This document shows positions 19,000 to 61,904 of a DNA stretch of 64,000 nt, piece after piece. Below the pieces are notes generated by a model. That model saw only the letters and a list, made by a program, of their open reading frames with translations. It was not told the origin of the DNA and searched no databases. The position numbers were made by a program, and so were the translations under genes. Source of the DNA: Escherichia phage sutha; the sequence record PV245934.1; one strand, 5' to 3'. The stretch's first letter is position 1. Each line of letters opens with the position of its first letter.

Positions 19000-19012
19000 A
19001 TTATTTATATCA
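19000..19012 (-). promoter_or_regulatory. late promoter TATAAATA upstream of soc
   Basis: + strand tatttata at 19003-19010 = TATAAATA on coding strand, about 30 nt before soc ATG. Confidence 0.55.
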
Positions 19013-24280: not shown

Positions 24281-24625
24281 TTAAAAGAATTTAAATTTTT
24301 TCTTTGACCTTTTATTAAATGCATCTTGTAGTTGCATTGTAATACATTTTTCTACATGAGGAGCTAACTCAGCTTTTCTTTCTTGGTCAAGAACAGCAAA
24401 GTCCATTACGACTTTTCCATCAACCCAATCTAATTTTGTCACATACACAATGTGTGTAGAACCGTCTTCTAGTTTAATGACAATCTCCTGGATAACATTT
24501 TCCATAGCAGATTTAATTATCTTAAGAGATTCATTAAAAAGACGTTCTTTTCTTTCTTCTTCCCCCTCCGAAGAGGGGGATTCATCGATAATTTCTAGAT
24601 CTAAATCTAAATCATCTTTATTCAT
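24281..24625 (-). CDS. 40: gp40-like protein
   Basis: ORF 24281..24643 starts at GTG in track; ATG at 24623-24625 (MNKDDLDLDLEIID...) more plausible. Confidence 0.5.
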   Translation of the reverse strand: MNKDDLDLDLEIIDESPSSEGEEERKERLFNESLKIIKSAMENVIQEIVIKLEDGSTHIVYVTKLDWVDGKVVMDFAVLDQERKAELAPHVEKCITMQLQDAFNKRSKKKFKFF

Positions 24626-24687
24626 TAAATTCTTCCATATCACTTAACTGATCTAGGTCAGTTTCTAAATCAGCTGCTGATTTACTT

Positions 24688-25800
24688 TTACTTTCTGGAG
24701 ATTTTAAATTTTTCAACCTTTGAGTTAATCAATTCATCAACTTCAGCTTCAACAATTTCATTACTATCAATAGCACCTAACTGATAAGCACGTTTAATAG
24801 CATCTCGGAATGGTTGATGCTTAAATAAAGGACCCCAGAATGTAGTGCAATTGGTATCTTTTGCACGCCAAGATTTTTCTTCGCGAATCATCTCACCGGT
24901 TTCTTCATCAAGAAATTCACGAGCATACCAACCATTTTTAGGTTTTACTACAAATCCTAATTCAAGAGCCATATCTAACAATCCAGAATAAGGATCGATA
25001 CCACCGTCAAATTTAACATCAATAAAGAATTTACTTTTTTCTTTGACGGTACGAGATTTTTCTACATTTAGAACAAATTGATACCCCTGAAGATCAGAAC
25101 CATCTTTAATCTGGCGCTTACCGATAATGAATACAGTATCAGCCGAATACATTACGCCTGTACCACCTGTCATCACGGTTTTACTAAACATTTCAATTGT
25201 TTCAATTGTATGGTTAACCGCAACACATGGAATGTTTTTAATACTAAAATAAGGAGTAACAATACGGAATAATGACTTCAGTGATTTAGCACGAGTCATA
25301 TCTGCCACAGATTTTTCATTCAAGGCATCTTCCGTTTCTTTCTTAGAAGCCATATTACCAATTGAGTCGATGAATACAATAACCTTTTCACCACGCTCAA
25401 TAGCTTCAAGCTGATTCACCATATCAATTTTCAGCTGTTCAACTGACTGAATTGGCGTATGAATTACTCGTTCCGGGTCAACCCCCATGGATCGCAAATA
25501 AGCTGGAGTAATACCAAATTCGCTATCATAGAATAGACAAACTGCATCAGGATATTTGTTCAAATATGCCGCAACCATAGTCAAAGACATATTTGATTTA
25601 AAGTGTTTAGAAGGCCCTGCGAAAATAGTTAAACCAGACTGCATACCGCCATTAATCGCACCAGAAATAGCAATATTAAGCATTGGAATTTTTGTACGAA
25701 TTACATCCTTTTCATTAAAGAATTTAGATGTAGTCAGTTCAGCAGTCATTTTAGAAGTGGAAGCTTTAATCAAACGGGATTTTAAATCTGCAATAGACAT
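24688..25800 (-). CDS. uvsX: UvsX recombinase (RecA family), C-terminally truncated by apparent frameshift
   Basis: 370-aa ORF with RecA-like core; ends ...KFKISRK*; +1 frame continues 27 codons to stop at 24618-24620. Confidence 0.9.
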   Translation of the reverse strand: MSIADLKSRLIKASTSKMTAELTTSKFFNEKDVIRTKIPMLNIAISGAINGGMQSGLTIFAGPSKHFKSNMSLTMVAAYLNKYPDAVCLFYDSEFGITPAYLRSMGVDPERVIHTPIQSVEQLKIDMVNQLEAIERGEKVIVFIDSIGNMASKKETEDALNEKSVADMTRAKSLKSLFRIVTPYFSIKNIPCVAVNHTIETIEMFSKTVMTGGTGVMYSADTVFIIGKRQIKDGSDLQGYQFVLNVEKSRTVKEKSKFFIDVKFDGGIDPYSGLLDMALELGFVVKPKNGWYAREFLDEETGEMIREEKSWRAKDTNCTTFWGPLFKHQPFRDAIKRAYQLGAIDSNEIVEAEVDELINSKVEKFKISRK

Positions 25801-25878: not shown

Positions 25879-26727
25879 TTAATCAACTGCTATTGGATGA
25901 ATAGCATTAAACTTATGAAATGCTTCTGATTTTTCTTTACGCGAAACACACATGCGAAGAACCTTTAGTGGTTCATCTTCTTCACCCAACGATTTTCGTT
26001 TTTCAATATTCGATGTTTTCCAACGAGCTTGCTCTGGAAACTCTCTATTGATTTGTTCAAGCGCTCTATTATGTTTAGAATTACTACGAATTGAACTACA
26101 CCCGCCAGGAGCTTGTGCTTTTCCAGATACAACTAGATATTTGAACAAGGCCAAATGCGGATAACCTTGATTAATTAAATTGAGAAATGCATACATATCT
26201 TCGCATAAATCAATTTTTCCATACCCAATTTGTTCTGTAGTAAGTTTTCCAAGGTCATACCATGTATTCGTGAATCCATATGAGTTTTCACGATAATTAC
26301 CCCAAGATGAAGTAATTTTAAAAATTGGTAGACGAGCATGGCCATGATAATACCCGCAATCCATGGCATCCTCAACGTATTGAATCAATTCATAGAACTG
26401 TTCACGAGTTAATTGATTAATTTTATCTACACATCGGCGATCATCTCTTTTTCGCATTGAACTCATACGAATAGTAGTATCATCGTCAATCATCCAGATT
26501 CGTTGACCTGCATACATATCAGTAATTGCTTTACGAGTACCGGCAATTCCATTAACATCATCAGGAATAGTTACAATTTTAGCTTTAGACCCGTAAGCGT
26601 CATAATAAGCTTTTTCTTCATGTTCACGTACTACAATATGGGGTTCATAATCAGTCGGAAACATATCAAGGGCAGAAACTGCCCCTACGCGTTGATAACT
26701 TGGAATTACGAATTGAATCATTTCCAC
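25879..26727 (-). CDS. putative GT-A fold glycosyltransferase at the beta-gt locus (candidate beta-alpha-glucosyltransferase as in T2/T6)
   Basis: 282-aa ORF with IWMIDDDTT (DxD-type) motif; occupies slot between uvsX and 42 but does not resemble T4 beta-gt as I recall it. Confidence 0.45.
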   Translation of the reverse strand: MEMIQFVIPSYQRVGAVSALDMFPTDYEPHIVVREHEEKAYYDAYGSKAKIVTIPDDVNGIAGTRKAITDMYAGQRIWMIDDDTTIRMSSMRKRDDRRCVDKINQLTREQFYELIQYVEDAMDCGYYHGHARLPIFKITSSWGNYRENSYGFTNTWYDLGKLTTEQIGYGKIDLCEDMYAFLNLINQGYPHLALFKYLVVSGKAQAPGGCSSIRSNSKHNRALEQINREFPEQARWKTSNIEKRKSLGEEDEPLKVLRMCVSRKEKSEAFHKFNAIHPIAVD

Positions 26728-44255: not shown

Positions 44256-44747
44256 TTAATCATGTTTCCACACCCCATCGGTATTTGACCAAAGTCGCTG
44301 ATTATCTGATCCTCGCCACAGCTTTTTGGTCGGAAGATTTTTCTCATACTTCCCATCAATAATAACATCAACATATTTAAGCATTTCTAGTTGTTTAATA
44401 TCTTCAAACTTATATCCTGTCCACAACCAAATGCTTTTATTGGGATAAAGATTTTTTACTGTTTGAACAATGCAATGAATAACATCTCGGTTATCAGGAT
44501 AGAGAGGGTCTCCTCCAGTTATAGTTAATCCTTCTATATAATCATTATTCAAACATTCAATTAATTGTTCTAGTGTTTCACCAGTGAATGGAACGCCATT
44601 TCTAGCATTCCATGTTGATTTATTATAACACCCTTCACATTTATGCAAACAACCTGTAACGAAAAGAACGACCCTGCATCCAGGACCATTAACAAAGCAG
44701 CAAGGGTATATTCTGTCATAATTCATAATAATATCCAATTTTTCCAA
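44256..44747 (-). CDS. nrdG: anaerobic ribonucleotide reductase activating protein NrdG (radical SAM)
   Basis: 163-aa ORF with Cys cluster CxxxCxxC-like GCLHKCEGC. Confidence 0.8.
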   Translation of the reverse strand: MEKLDIIMNYDRIYPCCFVNGPGCRVVLFVTGCLHKCEGCYNKSTWNARNGVPFTGETLEQLIECLNNDYIEGLTITGGDPLYPDNRDVIHCIVQTVKNLYPNKSIWLWTGYKFEDIKQLEMLKYVDVIIDGKYEKNLPTKKLWRGSDNQRLWSNTDGVWKHD

Positions 44748-45557
44748 GCTTCATCAGTAGAATTACAGCGTTTTAGTATAAGATGTCTAGAAACTTTTAT
44801 GGCATTTGAGCACTTTTTAATTGAATCATATTTAATACCGTCAACTGAAACGGTTTTGCTAGTTGGAGAAATTTTTCCATACATTGGATTTTTTGAACCA
44901 ACTTGAAGTCCTTTTAAAGCTTTTGAAAGCTTTTGTCTAGATTCCAATGACATGGGAGAATTCTTTTTACCTTCAATAATTCGCTTGCGATGAAGTTCGC
45001 GTTCTTCTTCACTCAAAGAATTGTAATATTTTTTAACACCGTTTGATATAGATAATTTATCTTTCTCAGACCGCTCTCCAGCTAATTTACTTCTAACATC
45101 TTTTCGCTTCATAGCTATGCTTACGGCTTTATTTAAATTTGCTTGATGCTCTGGCGTACGTTTATATTTCTTTAAAGCACGTGAAATAGCTATTTTAGTT
45201 TCTTCTGTTCTCTTTTTACCTTTATTTGCTAAACTATTTTTGCGGCGATGTTCAAGTGTCTGTTCATAGGCAGTTCCACCTTTTCCACCAGGTTTAATAT
45301 TATATGTATTTTCTTTTAGACAATACTCTTCGGTTACAAGTTCAGCTTCTTTATCATACATTTGTTTTTCATTATCAAAAACATGTAAAATTTCTTTATT
45401 AAAATTTTTTCTACCATGTTTTAATAAAGCGGCACGAATCAATGTTCCTGACCCCATATAACCGTCATTTATTTATGTTATCGGTGCTATGCGCACCGAT
45501 ATATTCCTTTGAATTAATTATATTTGTTATTTTATAAATTATATAATACCTATGCAT
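44723..45557 (-). pseudogene. GIY-YIG homing endonuclease gene split by frameshift (29-codon catalytic N-terminus + 244-aa body)
   Basis: ATG 45555-45557 opens MHRYYIIYKITNIINSKEYIGAHSTDNINK* (GIY-YIG motif), stop at 45468-45470; body ORF 44723..45457 in +1 frame carries NUMOD-like repeats; A-rich site ataaataaatgacgg. Confidence 0.5.
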
Positions 45558-47367
45558 GTTTTACTCGTTTTACCATTTCTTTCATTTTACCTAAATTCCA
45601 TGGAACAACGCTAGGAGTTCCAAGATATCCGCATGTTCTTCTTATTGTATTCATCTTTTTAGGATCAGTTTCTCCACAAATAGAACAAACAAATCCGTTT
45701 TCAGTAGGAGTCATTTCATGGGTACTTCCACACGTAAAACATTTATCTACTGGCATATTAACACCAAAATAATCTAAATGTTGTGCAGCATAATCCCATA
45801 CAGCCTCAAGACCTTTTAGGTTATTTTTCATATCAGGAAGTTCAACATAAGAAATGTGACCACCTGTCGCAATGAAATGATACGGTGCTTCGCGAGAAAT
45901 CTTTTCAAACGGAGTAATATTTTCTTCTACTGAAACGTGGAAACTATTAGTGTACCAGCCTTTATCGGTAACATCTTTTACACTTCCATATTTTTCGGTA
46001 TCAAGTTTACAGAAGCGATAACACAGGTTTTCAGCAGGAGTAGAATACAAGCTAAAAGCAAATCCGGTTCTTTCAGTCCACTGTTTAAGACGAGCATTCA
46101 TTTTAGTCAAAATTTCTTGCCCAATATCACGACCGACAAGAATATTCAATTCGTGAATACCGATGTATCCCAGGGATACTGAACTTCTACCGTTTTTAAA
46201 TAACTCAATTATATCATCATCGGGTTTAAGACGAACCCCGAATGCACCTTCTTGGTAAAGAATAGGAGCAACAGTAGCTTTAACTCCTTTTAATGAACTA
46301 ATTCTACACATCAATGCTTCAAAACATAAATCCATTCGCTCATTGAACAATTCGGCAAATTTCTGTTCATTGAATTGTGTTCCAATATAAGAATCTAACG
46401 CAATGCGAGGAAGATTCAGTGTTACAACGCCAAGATTATTACGTCCATCAAGAATTTCATTACCAGTCGAATCTTTCCATACGCTCAAGAAACTACGGCA
46501 ACCCATTGGAGAAACAGGAATAGATGAACCTGTGATAGCTTTATTGTTCTTAGCCGAAATGATGTCAGGATACATTCTTTTGCTTGCGCATTCTAAAGCA
46601 AGCTGCTTAATATCATAGTTCGGATCGTCTTTATAAAGATTAACACCTTCTTCAACAAACATAACAAGTTTAGGGAAAATAGGAGTTATCCCATCACGAC
46701 CAAGGCCTTTAATACGATTTTTCAGAATTGCTTTCTGAATCATTCGTTCAGTCCAGTCAGTTCCCGTACCAAATGTAATTGTTACAAAAGGCGTTTGTCC
46801 GTTTGAACTAAAGAGAGTATTTACTTCATATTCATAAGCTTGGAATGCATCGTATACATCTTTTTCTGTTTTAGATTGGGCATAATTCAACGCATCAGCG
46901 ATTTGCCATTTTTCTGCGTCCTCAATATGTTTTGCATAGGTGCGTTTAACATAAGGAGAAAGGACTTTATCTACATTCGCAAAAGTCGTTCCACCGTATT
47001 GATGGGAAGCAACCTGTGCAGTAATTTGTGCCATAATTGCAGTAGCAACACCGATTGATTTAGGAGTTTCAATCTGTGCATTACCGAGCTTAAATCCGTT
47101 CTCAAGCATTCCTTTTAAATCTACTAAACAGCAATTAGTAAATGGAAGAGCAGGGGAATAATCAATATCATGGAAATGAATAATTCCGCTTTCATGCGCT
47201 TTCATAATAAAAGACGGGACCATATTTTTGGCAATGTGTTTAGACACAATACCAGCCATAAGGTCCCGTTGAGTTGGAAAAACACGAGAATCTTTATTAG
47301 CATTCTCGTTTAAAAGGTCTTTATTAGTTTTATGAATCAATCCTTCAATTTCTTTTTCAATTGTCAT
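45550..47367 (-). CDS. nrdD: anaerobic ribonucleoside-triphosphate reductase NrdD (glycyl radical enzyme), uninterrupted
   Basis: 605-aa continuous ORF with C-terminal zinc ribbon CxxC...CxxC and glycyl-radical region; size equals spliced T4 NrdD. Confidence 0.9.
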   Translation of the reverse strand: MTIEKEIEGLIHKTNKDLLNENANKDSRVFPTQRDLMAGIVSKHIAKNMVPSFIMKAHESGIIHFHDIDYSPALPFTNCCLVDLKGMLENGFKLGNAQIETPKSIGVATAIMAQITAQVASHQYGGTTFANVDKVLSPYVKRTYAKHIEDAEKWQIADALNYAQSKTEKDVYDAFQAYEYEVNTLFSSNGQTPFVTITFGTGTDWTERMIQKAILKNRIKGLGRDGITPIFPKLVMFVEEGVNLYKDDPNYDIKQLALECASKRMYPDIISAKNNKAITGSSIPVSPMGCRSFLSVWKDSTGNEILDGRNNLGVVTLNLPRIALDSYIGTQFNEQKFAELFNERMDLCFEALMCRISSLKGVKATVAPILYQEGAFGVRLKPDDDIIELFKNGRSSVSLGYIGIHELNILVGRDIGQEILTKMNARLKQWTERTGFAFSLYSTPAENLCYRFCKLDTEKYGSVKDVTDKGWYTNSFHVSVEENITPFEKISREAPYHFIATGGHISYVELPDMKNNLKGLEAVWDYAAQHLDYFGVNMPVDKCFTCGSTHEMTPTENGFVCSICGETDPKKMNTIRRTCGYLGTPSVVPWNLGKMKEMVKRVKHA

Positions 47368-47837
47368 TTTAAACTCTTTCTAAGCTGCTTCTTAAATGAA
47401 GTTATTAATTGTGTTTTGGTGTCAGATTCATTATATTCAAATCCTCTTTGAAGCATCTCAGCCATCATTTCCTCTTTTCCTAAACGAGAAAATTCCTTTG
47501 ATTTATCTCCAACAAAGTTAGGGTGAATATTATTTTGGGTGTAATCGGATTTTAAATAAGTAAGTAAATTTTCTAACCATTCAAGATAATCAACACCTTG
47601 CCCCTTTAAGCCAGAACGATTAAATTTATGTTTCATTTGACCTTCTGCAGCATTGCAGAGATTACATAGCAACCCACGTACCTTTCCTGCTTTTGGTCCA
47701 TTTAATTCATGGTCATGGTCAAGGTGATTAGCTTGAACATCAGGATTTAGTTCTCGTTGGCAAATTAAGCATTTACCGCTTTGTGCATCATAAAATTTCT
47801 GTTTTTCTTCTTTGTATAATTTGCCAGTCAATAACAT
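47364..47837 (-). CDS. 49: endonuclease VII gp49 (Holliday junction resolvase)
   Basis: 157-aa ORF, zinc-binding CLICQ...HLDHDH...CNLCN; size equals T4 gp49. Confidence 0.85.
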   Translation of the reverse strand: MLLTGKLYKEEKQKFYDAQSGKCLICQRELNPDVQANHLDHDHELNGPKAGKVRGLLCNLCNAAEGQMKHKFNRSGLKGQGVDYLEWLENLLTYLKSDYTQNNIHPNFVGDKSKEFSRLGKEEMMAEMLQRGFEYNESDTKTQLITSFKKQLRKSLK

Positions 47838-58439: not shown

Positions 58440-58961
58440 TTATCCTTTCATTGAAGGTGTAACAGTTGTTAAATACTTAATCATAGCTTCAGCTTCTGAT
58501 TTTGATAATGAAATTTCTCCATTGTTTTGACGAATAGAAATAAAATCCGGATGACGGTCACCACCAGCTTTTAAAACACACATATAAGTATCAGTTTCAT
58601 CTTCAATATCTGAAATGATTGAAGCAGTTCCACATGAATGTGGTTTTTGATAAATCAATGCAGCTTTTCTTCCACCGTTTGACTGCTCATAGGCTTTTAA
58701 TACATCAAGCAAATCAGTTCTTTTATCAATAGCTAAGATGTTGTTTTCATCTTCAATGTTAAATCCTTCGGATACTTCATAAAGTGTCACCCATAAATCG
58801 CCAATATCAATGACAGCATTCACCTTTCCATGATTTTCAAGAGCATTACAAATTTTCTTGATTTCGTCATAACTCATTTTAATAATATCATCTCCTTGAA
58901 TAAGGAAGATGTCATTTTTAAATTTAACACGAATTAAACCACTTTCACTTGAAATAAACAT
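58440..58961 (-). CDS. hypothetical protein (paralog of next ORF)
   Basis: 173-aa ORF; shares FNIE and YL..V.P.M motifs with 58968..59501. Confidence 0.4.
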   Translation of the reverse strand: MFISSESGLIRVKFKNDIFLIQGDDIIKMSYDEIKKICNALENHGKVNAVIDIGDLWVTLYEVSEGFNIEDENNILAIDKRTDLLDVLKAYEQSNGGRKAALIYQKPHSCGTASIISDIEDETDTYMCVLKAGGDRHPDFISIRQNNGEISLSKSEAEAMIKYLTTVTPSMKG

Positions 58962-61892: not shown

Positions 61893-61904
61893 CCTATTTA
61901 TAAC
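61893..61904 (-). promoter_or_regulatory. possible late promoter TATAAATA between tk and rI.1
   Basis: + strand tatttata at about 61895-61902. Confidence 0.35.

What the first reader, a model, noticed from the sequence alone, without database searches (positions are those of the whole stretch)
44723..45557. GIY-YIG homing endonuclease gene between nrdG and nrdD is split by a frameshift; nrdD itself is intron-free
ATG at 45555-45557 opens a 29-codon frame with a clear GIY-YIG motif (YYIIYKITNIINSKEYIGAHSTDNINK*), and the 244-aa ORF 44723..45457 continues the protein in another frame (INDGYMGSGTLIRAALLKHGRKNF... with NUMOD-like repeats). The break is in the A-rich stretch ataaataaatgacgg. Together they would make an intact free-standing endonuclease of about 270 aa. 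In T4 the nrdD gene carries a group I intron with its own endonuclease; here nrdD is a continuous 605-aa ORF and the endonuclease sits intergenically. This looks like a decaying or recently mobilised homing element, or a second homopolymer error like the one in uvsX.
Basis: seen in the sequence. Interest (0 to 1): 0.5.

Follow-up and report, generated by a model that had tools for sequence, protein, structure and literature searches.

The report
Frameshifted copy of phage segH
This is segH, an already described selfish homing-endonuclease gene of T4-like phages, knocked out here by a four-base tandem duplication; it is ordinary decay of a selfish gene, or possibly a sequence error.

Summary
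On the minus strand, between nrdD (45550-47367) and nrdG (44256-44726), lies a GIY-YIG endonuclease gene split into a 30-codon 5' piece (45465-45557) and a 244-codon 3' ORF (44723-45457).

It is segH, the free-standing homing endonuclease gene described in RB3, LZ2 and T6 (Sandegren et al. 2005). With four bases removed, the product matches RB3 SegH at 275 of 276 residues.

The break is not a homopolymer slip. It is a 4-bp tandem duplication, ATAA to ATAAATAA (45469-45476), that brings a TGA into frame. No other copy examined has it: 72 phage records and three metagenome contigs encoding an identical NrdD.

The 5' piece holds the GIY and YIG motifs, so any product of the 244-aa ORF should be catalytically dead.

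nrdD is intron-free: a continuous 605-aa ORF, with no Rfam match anywhere in the window.

Most likely this is a genuine, very recent loss-of-function mutation. An independent degenerate segH exists in phage PD112, with an in-frame deletion of about 577 nt. A sequence or assembly error cannot be excluded without reads. The window also carries a unique +1 A in uvsX, yet none of its 441 homopolymers of 5 nt or more is associated with a frameshift.

The gene family is known and interest is low.

The parts
45550..47367 (-). nrdD, the anaerobic ribonucleotide reductase large subunit. It is a continuous 605 aa with no intron. Its last ~22 codons (GTPSVVPWNLGKMKEMVKRVKHA) differ from the empty-site and mobC alleles.
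   Evidence: ORF; exact protein is in public collections, within a named NrdD cluster; no Rfam intron; C-terminus compared with T4 and RB14.
45465..45557 (-). segH 5' fragment: 30 codons plus a premature TGA (45467-45465). It contains the GIY (YIIY) and YIG motifs. Its ATG overlaps the nrdD stop by 8 nt.
   Evidence: PHROG 314 'homing endonuclease', E = 6.7e-7 for the 30-mer alone. Y8, T11, N12, Y19, G21, H23, T25 are invariant in 27 homologues.
45469..45476 (-). The lesion: a tandem duplication of 4 bp, ATAAATAA where all relatives have a single ATAA. It shifts the frame by +1.
   Evidence: alignments and coordinates; the best match among 72 phage records is 87/91, which is the 4-base gap in every record.
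44723..45472 (-). segH 3' part in the +1 frame, homologous from I28 onwards. The mechanical ORF starts at Met33 (45457) and is 244 aa. It holds the rest of the catalytic domain (E69, N85), two NUMOD3 motifs and an I-TevI-like C-terminal DNA-binding domain. Its stop overlaps the nrdG start (ATGA).
   Evidence: NUMOD3 E = 1.5e-8; I-TevI_DNA-bd E = 2e-4, below cut-off; PHROG 314, E = 7e-45; profile against I-TevI, 95.8 %.
44256..44726 (-). nrdG, the anaerobic RNR activase, 156 aa. The true start is the ATG at 44726, not the upstream TTG that the ORF lister gives.
   Evidence: translation MNYDRIYPC...KHD* aligned with T4 NrdG; relatives' annotation: nrdG starts 4 nt before the segH end.
45479..45501 (-). 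A perfect 9-bp inverted repeat with a 5-nt loop (TATCGGTGC-GCATA-GCACCGATA) inside the YIG-motif codons, ending 3 nt upstream of the duplicated tetranucleotide. It may act as a pause or slippage promoter. Its function is unknown.
   Evidence: scan; present in both MFE and centroid structures; 141-nt context z = -2.1; invariant in all 7 alleles including KM16, so no covariation test is possible.

Best explanation
The locus is segH, a free-standing GIY-YIG homing endonuclease gene of T-even-type phages (genus Tequatrovirus). It occupies the nrdD-nrdG junction, where T4 has mobC and phages such as RB14 have nothing.

In intact form it is translated from an ATG that overlaps the nrdD stop. That arrangement implies translational coupling and low expression. 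The product has a catalytic GIY-YIG domain joined by NUMOD3 modules to an I-TevI-like DNA-binding domain. It cuts phage DNA near its own locus, so that repair copies segH and its flanks into the cut genome.

In this window a replication-slippage event duplicated the tetranucleotide ATAA (AT-AA-AT to AT-AA-AT-AA-AT, 2-nt microhomology, 3 nt downstream of a 9-bp hairpin). Translation now stops after 30 codons. Those 30 codons carry both Tyr-containing motifs of the active site. Even if ribosomes re-initiate at Met33, 7 nt past the stop, the 244-aa product should bind DNA at most and not cleave it.

The rest of the gene is still essentially identical to functional alleles, so the inactivation is very recent. 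This is the degeneration stage of the homing-endonuclease life cycle.

Shown: the identity of the gene, the nature and uniqueness of the lesion, and the loss of the motifs from the long ORF. Inferred: that the lesion is real rather than an error, the slippage mechanism, and the loss of activity.
For: Identity:
- 99 % DNA identity over 1101 nt to about 70 phages whose gene is annotated segH or homing endonuclease, including the original RB3, LZ2 and T6 entries AY262138, AY262139 and AY262137.
- The repaired product differs from RB3 SegH only by Y46H.
- PHROG 314, E = 2.4e-60. NUMOD3 above the Pfam cut-off.
- A family profile against I-TevI gives hhalign probability 95.8 %, E = 6.6e-9, over the whole length. 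The I-TevI sequence was checked against PDB 1mk0, 1ln0 and 1i3j.
- Homologues carry PF01541 or PF19835.

Lesion:
- Four extra bases forming a tandem repeat.
- Absent from all 72 phage records with this stretch.
- Absent from three independent ENA/Logan contigs that encode an identical NrdD and a 276-aa SegH.

A genuine mutation is plausible:
- The window has 441 homopolymers of 5 nt or more and 69 of 6 nt or more. Only two of 135 ORFs shared with ECO4 carry a window-specific frameshift. The assembly is therefore not generally indel-prone, and a 4-bp duplication is not a typical platform error.
- segH decay occurs independently elsewhere. Phage PD112 keeps only an 80-codon in-frame remnant after a deletion of about 577 nt between AAATATG repeats.
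- Frameshifts, deletions and variable stops are described as typical of phage homing endonuclease genes (PMC10055350).

Three states of the site: empty in RB14, mobC in T4, segH here.
Against: No reads are available, so the duplication cannot be verified. It is seen in this one sequence only.

The same window has a second unique frameshift: uvsX, AAA to AAAA, absent from 506 records. This raises the prior that the sequence contains errors.

60 of 60 listed public copies of segH are full-length in one frame. Disruption is therefore the exception rather than the rule.

Apart from Y46H there is no further decay, which is what an artefact in an intact gene would also look like.

Loss of activity is inferred from motif loss, not measured.
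Confidence: 0.6

Rival explanations
1. Sequencing, assembly or consensus-calling artefact. On this reading the phage has an intact 831-nt segH and the extra ATAA is not in the DNA.
For: The allele is unique among 72 phage records and 3 metagenome contigs. The rest of the gene is undamaged. A second unique single-base indel sits in the conserved uvsX gene of the same window. The exact 244-aa and 370-aa truncated products are not on record in the protein or contig collections, so nothing independently confirms either one.
Against: The change is a 4-base tandem duplication in a non-homopolymer context, not the indel type produced by homopolymer-sensitive platforms. None of the 441 homopolymers of 5 nt or more is associated with a frameshift. 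There are no ambiguous bases in the window.
Confidence: 0.33
2. The split gene still yields some full-length enzyme by +1 ribosomal frameshifting at AAA_UGA_C. The lysyl-tRNA would slip at a 'shifty stop' in the weakest termination context, as in prfB. The product would be SegH with one extra Lys (…NINK-DGYMGSG…), so the duplication would act as an expression attenuator, not a knockout.
For: From the sequence, the premature stop is UGA followed by C and is preceded by AAA. Skipping the U restores the SegH frame exactly at D30. Homing endonucleases need, and tolerate, only very low expression (PMC2988022).
Against: There is no Shine-Dalgarno-like stimulator upstream of the site. AAA to AAU re-pairing is poor. 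The arrangement is not conserved: every other segH is a plain single ORF. It therefore has none of the hallmarks of a programmed site.
Confidence: 0.03
3. The 244-aa ORF is expressed by termination-reinitiation at Met33, 7 nt after the stop. It would act as a nuclease-dead, site-specific DNA-binding protein, for example shielding the SegH target or repressing transcription as I-TevI does at its operator.
For: The ORF retains both NUMOD3 motifs and the I-TevI-like C-terminal domain. The short distance between stop and ATG is compatible with re-initiation. I-TevI is documented to double as a repressor through its DNA-binding domain (PMC2988022).
Against: There is no good ribosome-binding site before Met33. 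The allele is unique, so nothing shows selection for it. The idea is purely inferential.
Confidence: 0.04

Closest known systems
SegH of phages RB3, LZ2 and T6 (Sandegren, Nord and Sjoberg, Nucleic Acids Res 2005; GenBank AY262138, AY262139, AY262137)
   Same: Same gene at the same place. The start overlaps the nrdD stop and the stop overlaps the nrdG start. DNA identity is 99 %, and protein identity is 275/276 once the 4 extra bases are removed.
   Different: This copy carries a 4-bp tandem duplication after codon 29, giving a stop after codon 30, and a Y46H substitution. No other copy examined has either change.
I-TevI, the td-intron GIY-YIG endonuclease of T4 (PDB 1mk0, 1ln0, 1i3j)
   Same: Same architecture: an N-terminal GIY-YIG catalytic domain, a linker with NUMOD3-type modules and a C-terminal helix-turn-helix DNA-binding domain. 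Profile-to-sequence match is 95.8 % over about 200 columns.
   Different: SegH is free-standing, not intron-encoded. Identity is only about 25 %. A single SegH sequence does not reach I-TevI in a PDB sequence search.
mobC of T4
   Same: Occupies the same nrdD-nrdG junction as a promoter-less free-standing endonuclease cassette that overlaps its upstream gene (PMC2988022).
   Different: It is an HNH family protein with no sequence relation to SegH.
Degenerate homing endonuclease genes: T4 I-TevIII (inactive through a deletion; PMC2988022) and the segH remnant of phage PD112
   Same: A homing endonuclease gene left in place but inactivated. This is the expected late stage of the invasion, fixation and degeneration cycle.
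   Different: Those examples are deletions (I-TevIII; PD112 loses about 577 nt in frame). Here the cause is a small duplication that could in principle revert by slippage.

Membership tests
segH (free-standing homing endonuclease gene of T-even phages) | Orthology to the characterised RB3/LZ2/T6 SegH | tested here: met
   99 % DNA identity. The repaired translation differs from RB3 SegH at one residue, Y46H.
segH (free-standing homing endonuclease gene of T-even phages) | Located between nrdD and nrdG, replacing mobC, in the same orientation with overlapping start and stop | tested here: met
   relatives' annotation; T4 mobC; empty site in RB14.
segH (free-standing homing endonuclease gene of T-even phages) | A single intact ORF of 276 codons | tested here: not met
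   A 4-bp duplication gives a stop after codon 30. The locus is a disrupted allele (pseudogene or error), not a functional member.
segH (free-standing homing endonuclease gene of T-even phages) | Site-specific cleavage near its own locus and preferential inheritance in mixed infection | not testable with these tools
   Needs enzyme assays or phage crosses. Reported for intact SegH by Sandegren et al. 2005. That paper is not held in the library. It is known here only through citing papers and from my own memory of its abstract.
GIY-YIG nuclease superfamily | N-terminal GIY ... YIG motifs, followed by a conserved basic residue, Glu and Asn | tested here: met
   Y5/Y8 (YIIY), Y19-I-G21, E69 and N85 are invariant or nearly so in 27 homologues. 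The profile matches I-TevI at 95.8 %. In this window the motifs are split between two frames.
GIY-YIG nuclease superfamily | Curated Pfam profile hit above the gathering score | tested here: inconclusive
   PF19835 SegE_GIY-YIG scores 19 bits against a cut-off of 25, E = 0.0018, for the joined protein. TIGR01453 scores 50.2 bits against a cut-off of 56. Many homologues carry PF01541 or PF19835 in precomputed annotation.
Intron-encoded homing endonuclease (the I-TevII situation in T4 nrdD) | ORF embedded in a group I intron that interrupts the host gene | tested here: not met
   nrdD is uninterrupted, there is no Rfam intron hit in the window, and segH lies between genes.
Programmed +1 frameshift site (prfB type) | Slippery codon plus a poor-context stop, an upstream Shine-Dalgarno-like stimulator, and conservation among relatives | tested here: not met
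   AAA_UGA_C is present, but there is no stimulator. The arrangement is unique to this sequence.

The most novel reading that the evidence does not exclude
The 4-bp duplication is not a dead end but a leaky or reversible attenuator of a toxic selfish nuclease. A trace of active SegH (+1 Lys) would be made by +1 frameshifting at AAA_UGA_C. Alternatively, the tetranucleotide repeat would revert by slippage in a fraction of genomes, while the re-initiated 244-aa nuclease-dead product binds the target site.
Probability: 0.04. Interest if true: 0.45.

Novelty: already known. Interest (0 to 1): 0.1.

Why it matters
It matters little beyond annotation.

For annotation, the locus should be labelled 'segH, disrupted (frameshift)', not two hypothetical proteins or a 244-aa 'homing endonuclease'. 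The comparison also shows that the 244-aa SegH entries in several public genomes (RB5, ACG-C40, fPS-2, one T6 record and others) are start-codon miscalls on intact DNA.

For biology, if the lesion is real this is a clean, very young example of homing-endonuclease degeneration at a site that exists in three states (empty, mobC, segH). Together with the PD112 deletion remnant, it could serve as a natural segH-null control in homing or marker-exclusion crosses.

It opens no long-standing question.

Tried and rejected
1. Searching for the duplicated allele as an exact 33-mer in IMG/VR, JGI metagenomes and GTDB genomes gave 0 hits. The wild-type 29-mer is also absent from IMG/VR and the metagenome set. 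For those two collections the negatives say nothing. No wild-type control was run on the GTDB genomes, so that negative is weak as well.

2. Exact look-ups of the truncated 244-aa SegH ORF, the 30-aa peptide and the truncated 370-aa UvsX found nothing on record. The source genome could not be identified and there is no independent assembly of it. The best whole-region match is only about 96 %.

3. Reading the primary SegH paper failed because it is not held. Citing papers only list it in their references. The cleavage-site position could therefore not be checked against the window.

4. PDB sequence searches with SegH alone and with a 27-sequence profile gave no significant hit. The relation to I-TevI showed only in the profile-to-sequence comparison.

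5. Homopolymer error was rejected for segH.

6. A possible late promoter created by the duplication was considered: CATAAATA against the T4 consensus TATAAATA, 7 of 8. There is no evidence for it and the first T is missing, so it was dropped.

7. The apparent frameshifts relative to ECO4 at about 58660 and about 60980 were checked. The first is shared with many phages, so ECO4 is the odd one out. The second appears to lie in a T-run after a hairpin, between genes.

Full report
**What is in the sequence**

All genes in this part of the window are on the minus strand. nrdD is a continuous 605-codon ORF (45550-47367), preceded by gene 49 (endonuclease VII, 47364-47837).

An ATG at 45557-45555, overlapping the nrdD stop by 8 nt (ATGCATAG), opens MHRYYIIYKITNIINSKEYIGAHSTDNINK. 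This reading ends at TGA 45467-45465.

In the +1 frame the sequence continues I-N-D-G-Y-M-G-S-G-T-L-I-R... down to TGA 44725-44723. That stop overlaps the nrdG start (ATGA; nrdG is 44256-44726). The mechanical ORF in this frame starts at Met33 (45457) and is 244 aa.

**What the gene is**

A megablast of 44600-45700 finds 726 phage records. About 70 of them cover the whole query at 98-99 % identity. In these the interval is annotated 'SegH' or 'homing endonuclease'. They include the original partial records for RB3, LZ2 and T6: AY262138.2, AY262139.2 and AY262137.2. [quoted passage not shown] I could see that paper only through reference lists and the Edgell et al. review (PMC2988022). The paper itself is not held.

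In relatives segH is 831 nt (276 aa). Its start lies 8 nt inside nrdD and its stop overlaps the nrdG ATG.

The site exists in three states. It is empty in RB14, where nrdD and nrdG overlap by ATGA. It holds the HNH gene mobC in T4, which also has the nrdD intron with I-TevII. It holds segH here. EC128 has both an endonuclease ORF within a split nrdD and segH, so the two elements are not mutually exclusive.

**Family evidence**

- PHROG 314 'homing endonuclease': E = 2.4e-60 for RB3 SegH, 7e-45 for the 244-aa ORF, and 6.7e-7 for the 30-aa fragment.
- Pfam NUMOD3 is above its cut-off. SegE_GIY-YIG and I-TevI_DNA-bd are below theirs. TIGR01453 is below its cut-off.
- A database search gives 518 homologues, many with PF01541 or PF19835.
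- In an alignment of 27 homologues, these residues are invariant: Y8, T11, N12, Y19, G21, H23, T25, D30, Y32, G34-S35-G36, E69 and Y84-N85.
- That profile matches I-TevI over catalytic domain, linker and C-terminal domain, with hhalign probability 95.8 % and E = 6.6e-9.

**The lesion**

Alignment with RB3, EC128, ECO4 and T6 was extended to KM16 (90 % protein identity) and to three ENA/Logan metagenome contigs that encode exactly the same NrdD protein as the window. All of them read ...GATAAC-ATAAATGACGG. The window reads ...GATAAC-ATAA-ATAAATGACGG.

The 8-mer ATAAATAA is at 45476-45469. This is a tandem duplication of a tetranucleotide. It can be explained by slippage on the 2-nt repeat AT-AA-AT. 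It lies 3 nt downstream of a perfect 9-bp hairpin (45479-45501). It is not a homopolymer length change.

With the four bases removed, the product differs from RB3 SegH only by Y46H. That position is His in I-TevI (KHG), so the change is unlikely to be damaging.

A 91-nt query across the site matches 72 phage records, and the best identity is 87/91 in every case. No record shares the duplication.

**Consequence**

The 30-codon fragment contains every invariant residue of the GIY and YIG motifs. The long ORF lacks them. Full-length SegH cannot be made by normal translation.

A re-initiated 244-aa product is conceivable, because the stop and Met33 are 7 nt apart. It would keep the NUMOD3 and helix-turn-helix modules but should be nuclease-dead. 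This is inference from the motifs, not a measurement.

**Real mutation or artefact?**

A tblastn screen of 147 ECO4 ORFs gave 135 with hits in the window. Only four show frame changes.

- uvsX has AAA to AAAA at 24702-24705. This truncates UvsX to 370 aa and is unique among 506 records.
- segH has the duplication described above.
- One site near 58660 has the window's state shared by many phages, so ECO4 is the variant.
- One is a T-run that appears to lie between genes.

The window has 441 homopolymers of 5 nt or more (69 of 6 nt or more) and no ambiguous bases. None of these runs is associated with a frameshift. The assembly is therefore not generally indel-prone. A 4-bp duplication is also not a typical platform error.

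Degeneration of segH also occurs independently. Phage PD112 (MH837626) retains only an 80-codon in-frame remnant after a deletion of about 577 nt between two AAATATG repeats.

On the other side, 60 of 60 listed public copies are full-length in one frame. The allele is seen only here, there is a second unique indel in the same window, and no reads are available.

I put a genuine recent mutation at about 0.6 and an artefact at about 0.33.

**Other readings**

The premature stop has the form AAA_UGA_C. A +1 slip there would restore the SegH frame with one extra Lys. There is no upstream stimulator, re-pairing is poor, and the arrangement is not conserved. I give it about 3 %.

A nuclease-dead DNA-binding role for the 244-aa ORF is possible, by analogy with I-TevI autorepression, but it is unsupported.

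**Comparison with what is known, and verdict**

The gene, its position, its family and its mode of action are all known. The only thing specific to this window is a unique 4-bp duplication, plus Y46H.

The flanks behave as expected for a homing cassette. The last 22 codons of nrdD and part of nrdG differ from the empty-site and mobC alleles. That is consistent with co-converted or target-site-variant flanks.

Novelty: already known. Interest: low, 0.1. The main practical value is correct annotation, plus a possible natural segH-null phage.

Noticed in passing
window 24688-25800 (-), A-run at 24702-24705: uvsX carries one extra A (AAATTTAAAT to AAATTTAAAAT). UvsX therefore ends at 370 aa (…VEKFKISRK*) instead of 391-393 aa. 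The normal acidic C-terminal tail survives as a separate 32-codon ORF (24618-24716). None of 506 phage records with this stretch has the extra A.
   Followed up: partly
window 45479-45501 (-): A perfect 9-bp stem with a 5-nt loop (TATCGGTGC GCATA GCACCGATA) lies inside the codons for the YIG motif of segH. It is invariant in all alleles seen, including KM16 at 90 % protein identity. It might be a regulatory RNA structure or merely a slippage-promoting hairpin. No covariation is available to test this.
   Followed up: partly
public records (RB5, ACG-C40, fPS-2, T6 AP018814, LH2, HY03); cluster of P0016: Several GenBank/RefSeq genomes annotate SegH as 244 aa starting at Met33, although their DNA has the intact 276-codon frame. 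This is a start-codon miscall, because the true ATG overlaps nrdD. In several RB-series records (RB3, RB5-7, RB9, RB10) the gene is also mislabelled segD.
   Followed up: yes
L013 (Escherichia phage vB_vPM_PD112, MH837626.1) 1064-1306: An unannotated segH remnant. An in-frame deletion of about 577 nt between two AAATATG repeats leaves an 80-codon ORF that fuses the GIY-YIG N-terminus to the last 34 residues. The annotated nrdG in that record is also shortened.
   Followed up: partly
window 45550-45620 (-) and 44560-44700 (-): The last ~22 codons of nrdD (GTPSVVPWNLGKMKEMVKRVKHA) differ from both T4 and RB14 (GNPNERGFNLGKNKEIMHRVKHQ). The middle of nrdG differs strongly from T4 but only slightly from RB14 over the stretch aligned. 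The divergent flanks presumably travel with the segH cassette or mark its target region. The 9-mer ATGCATAGG that starts segH also occurs in frame (M-H-R) near the end of the segH-less nrdD alleles.
   Followed up: partly
L002 (Escherichia phage EC128, ON210139.1) 1-2474: EC128 has an endonuclease ORF upstream of a shortened nrdD CDS, which looks like a T4-like intron arrangement, and also an intact segH downstream. Intron-borne and free-standing endonucleases therefore coexist at this locus in some phages.
   Followed up: no
whole window; matches at 19002-19009 (-) and 61895-61902 (-): The T4 late-promoter core TATAAATA occurs only twice in 64 kb, against 11.4 ± 3.5 expected from shuffles. 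Both copies are on the coding (minus) strand. This is consistent with avoidance of spurious late promoters in this early-gene region.
   Followed up: no
window 25879-26727 (-): The glucosyltransferase gene next to gene 42 is a 282-aa ORF matching the 843-nt 'glucosyl transferase' of ECO4. From memory, that size fits the T2/T6-type enzyme rather than the longer T4 beta-glucosyltransferase, which would place the phage with the T2/T6/RB3-like Tequatroviruses.
   Followed up: no
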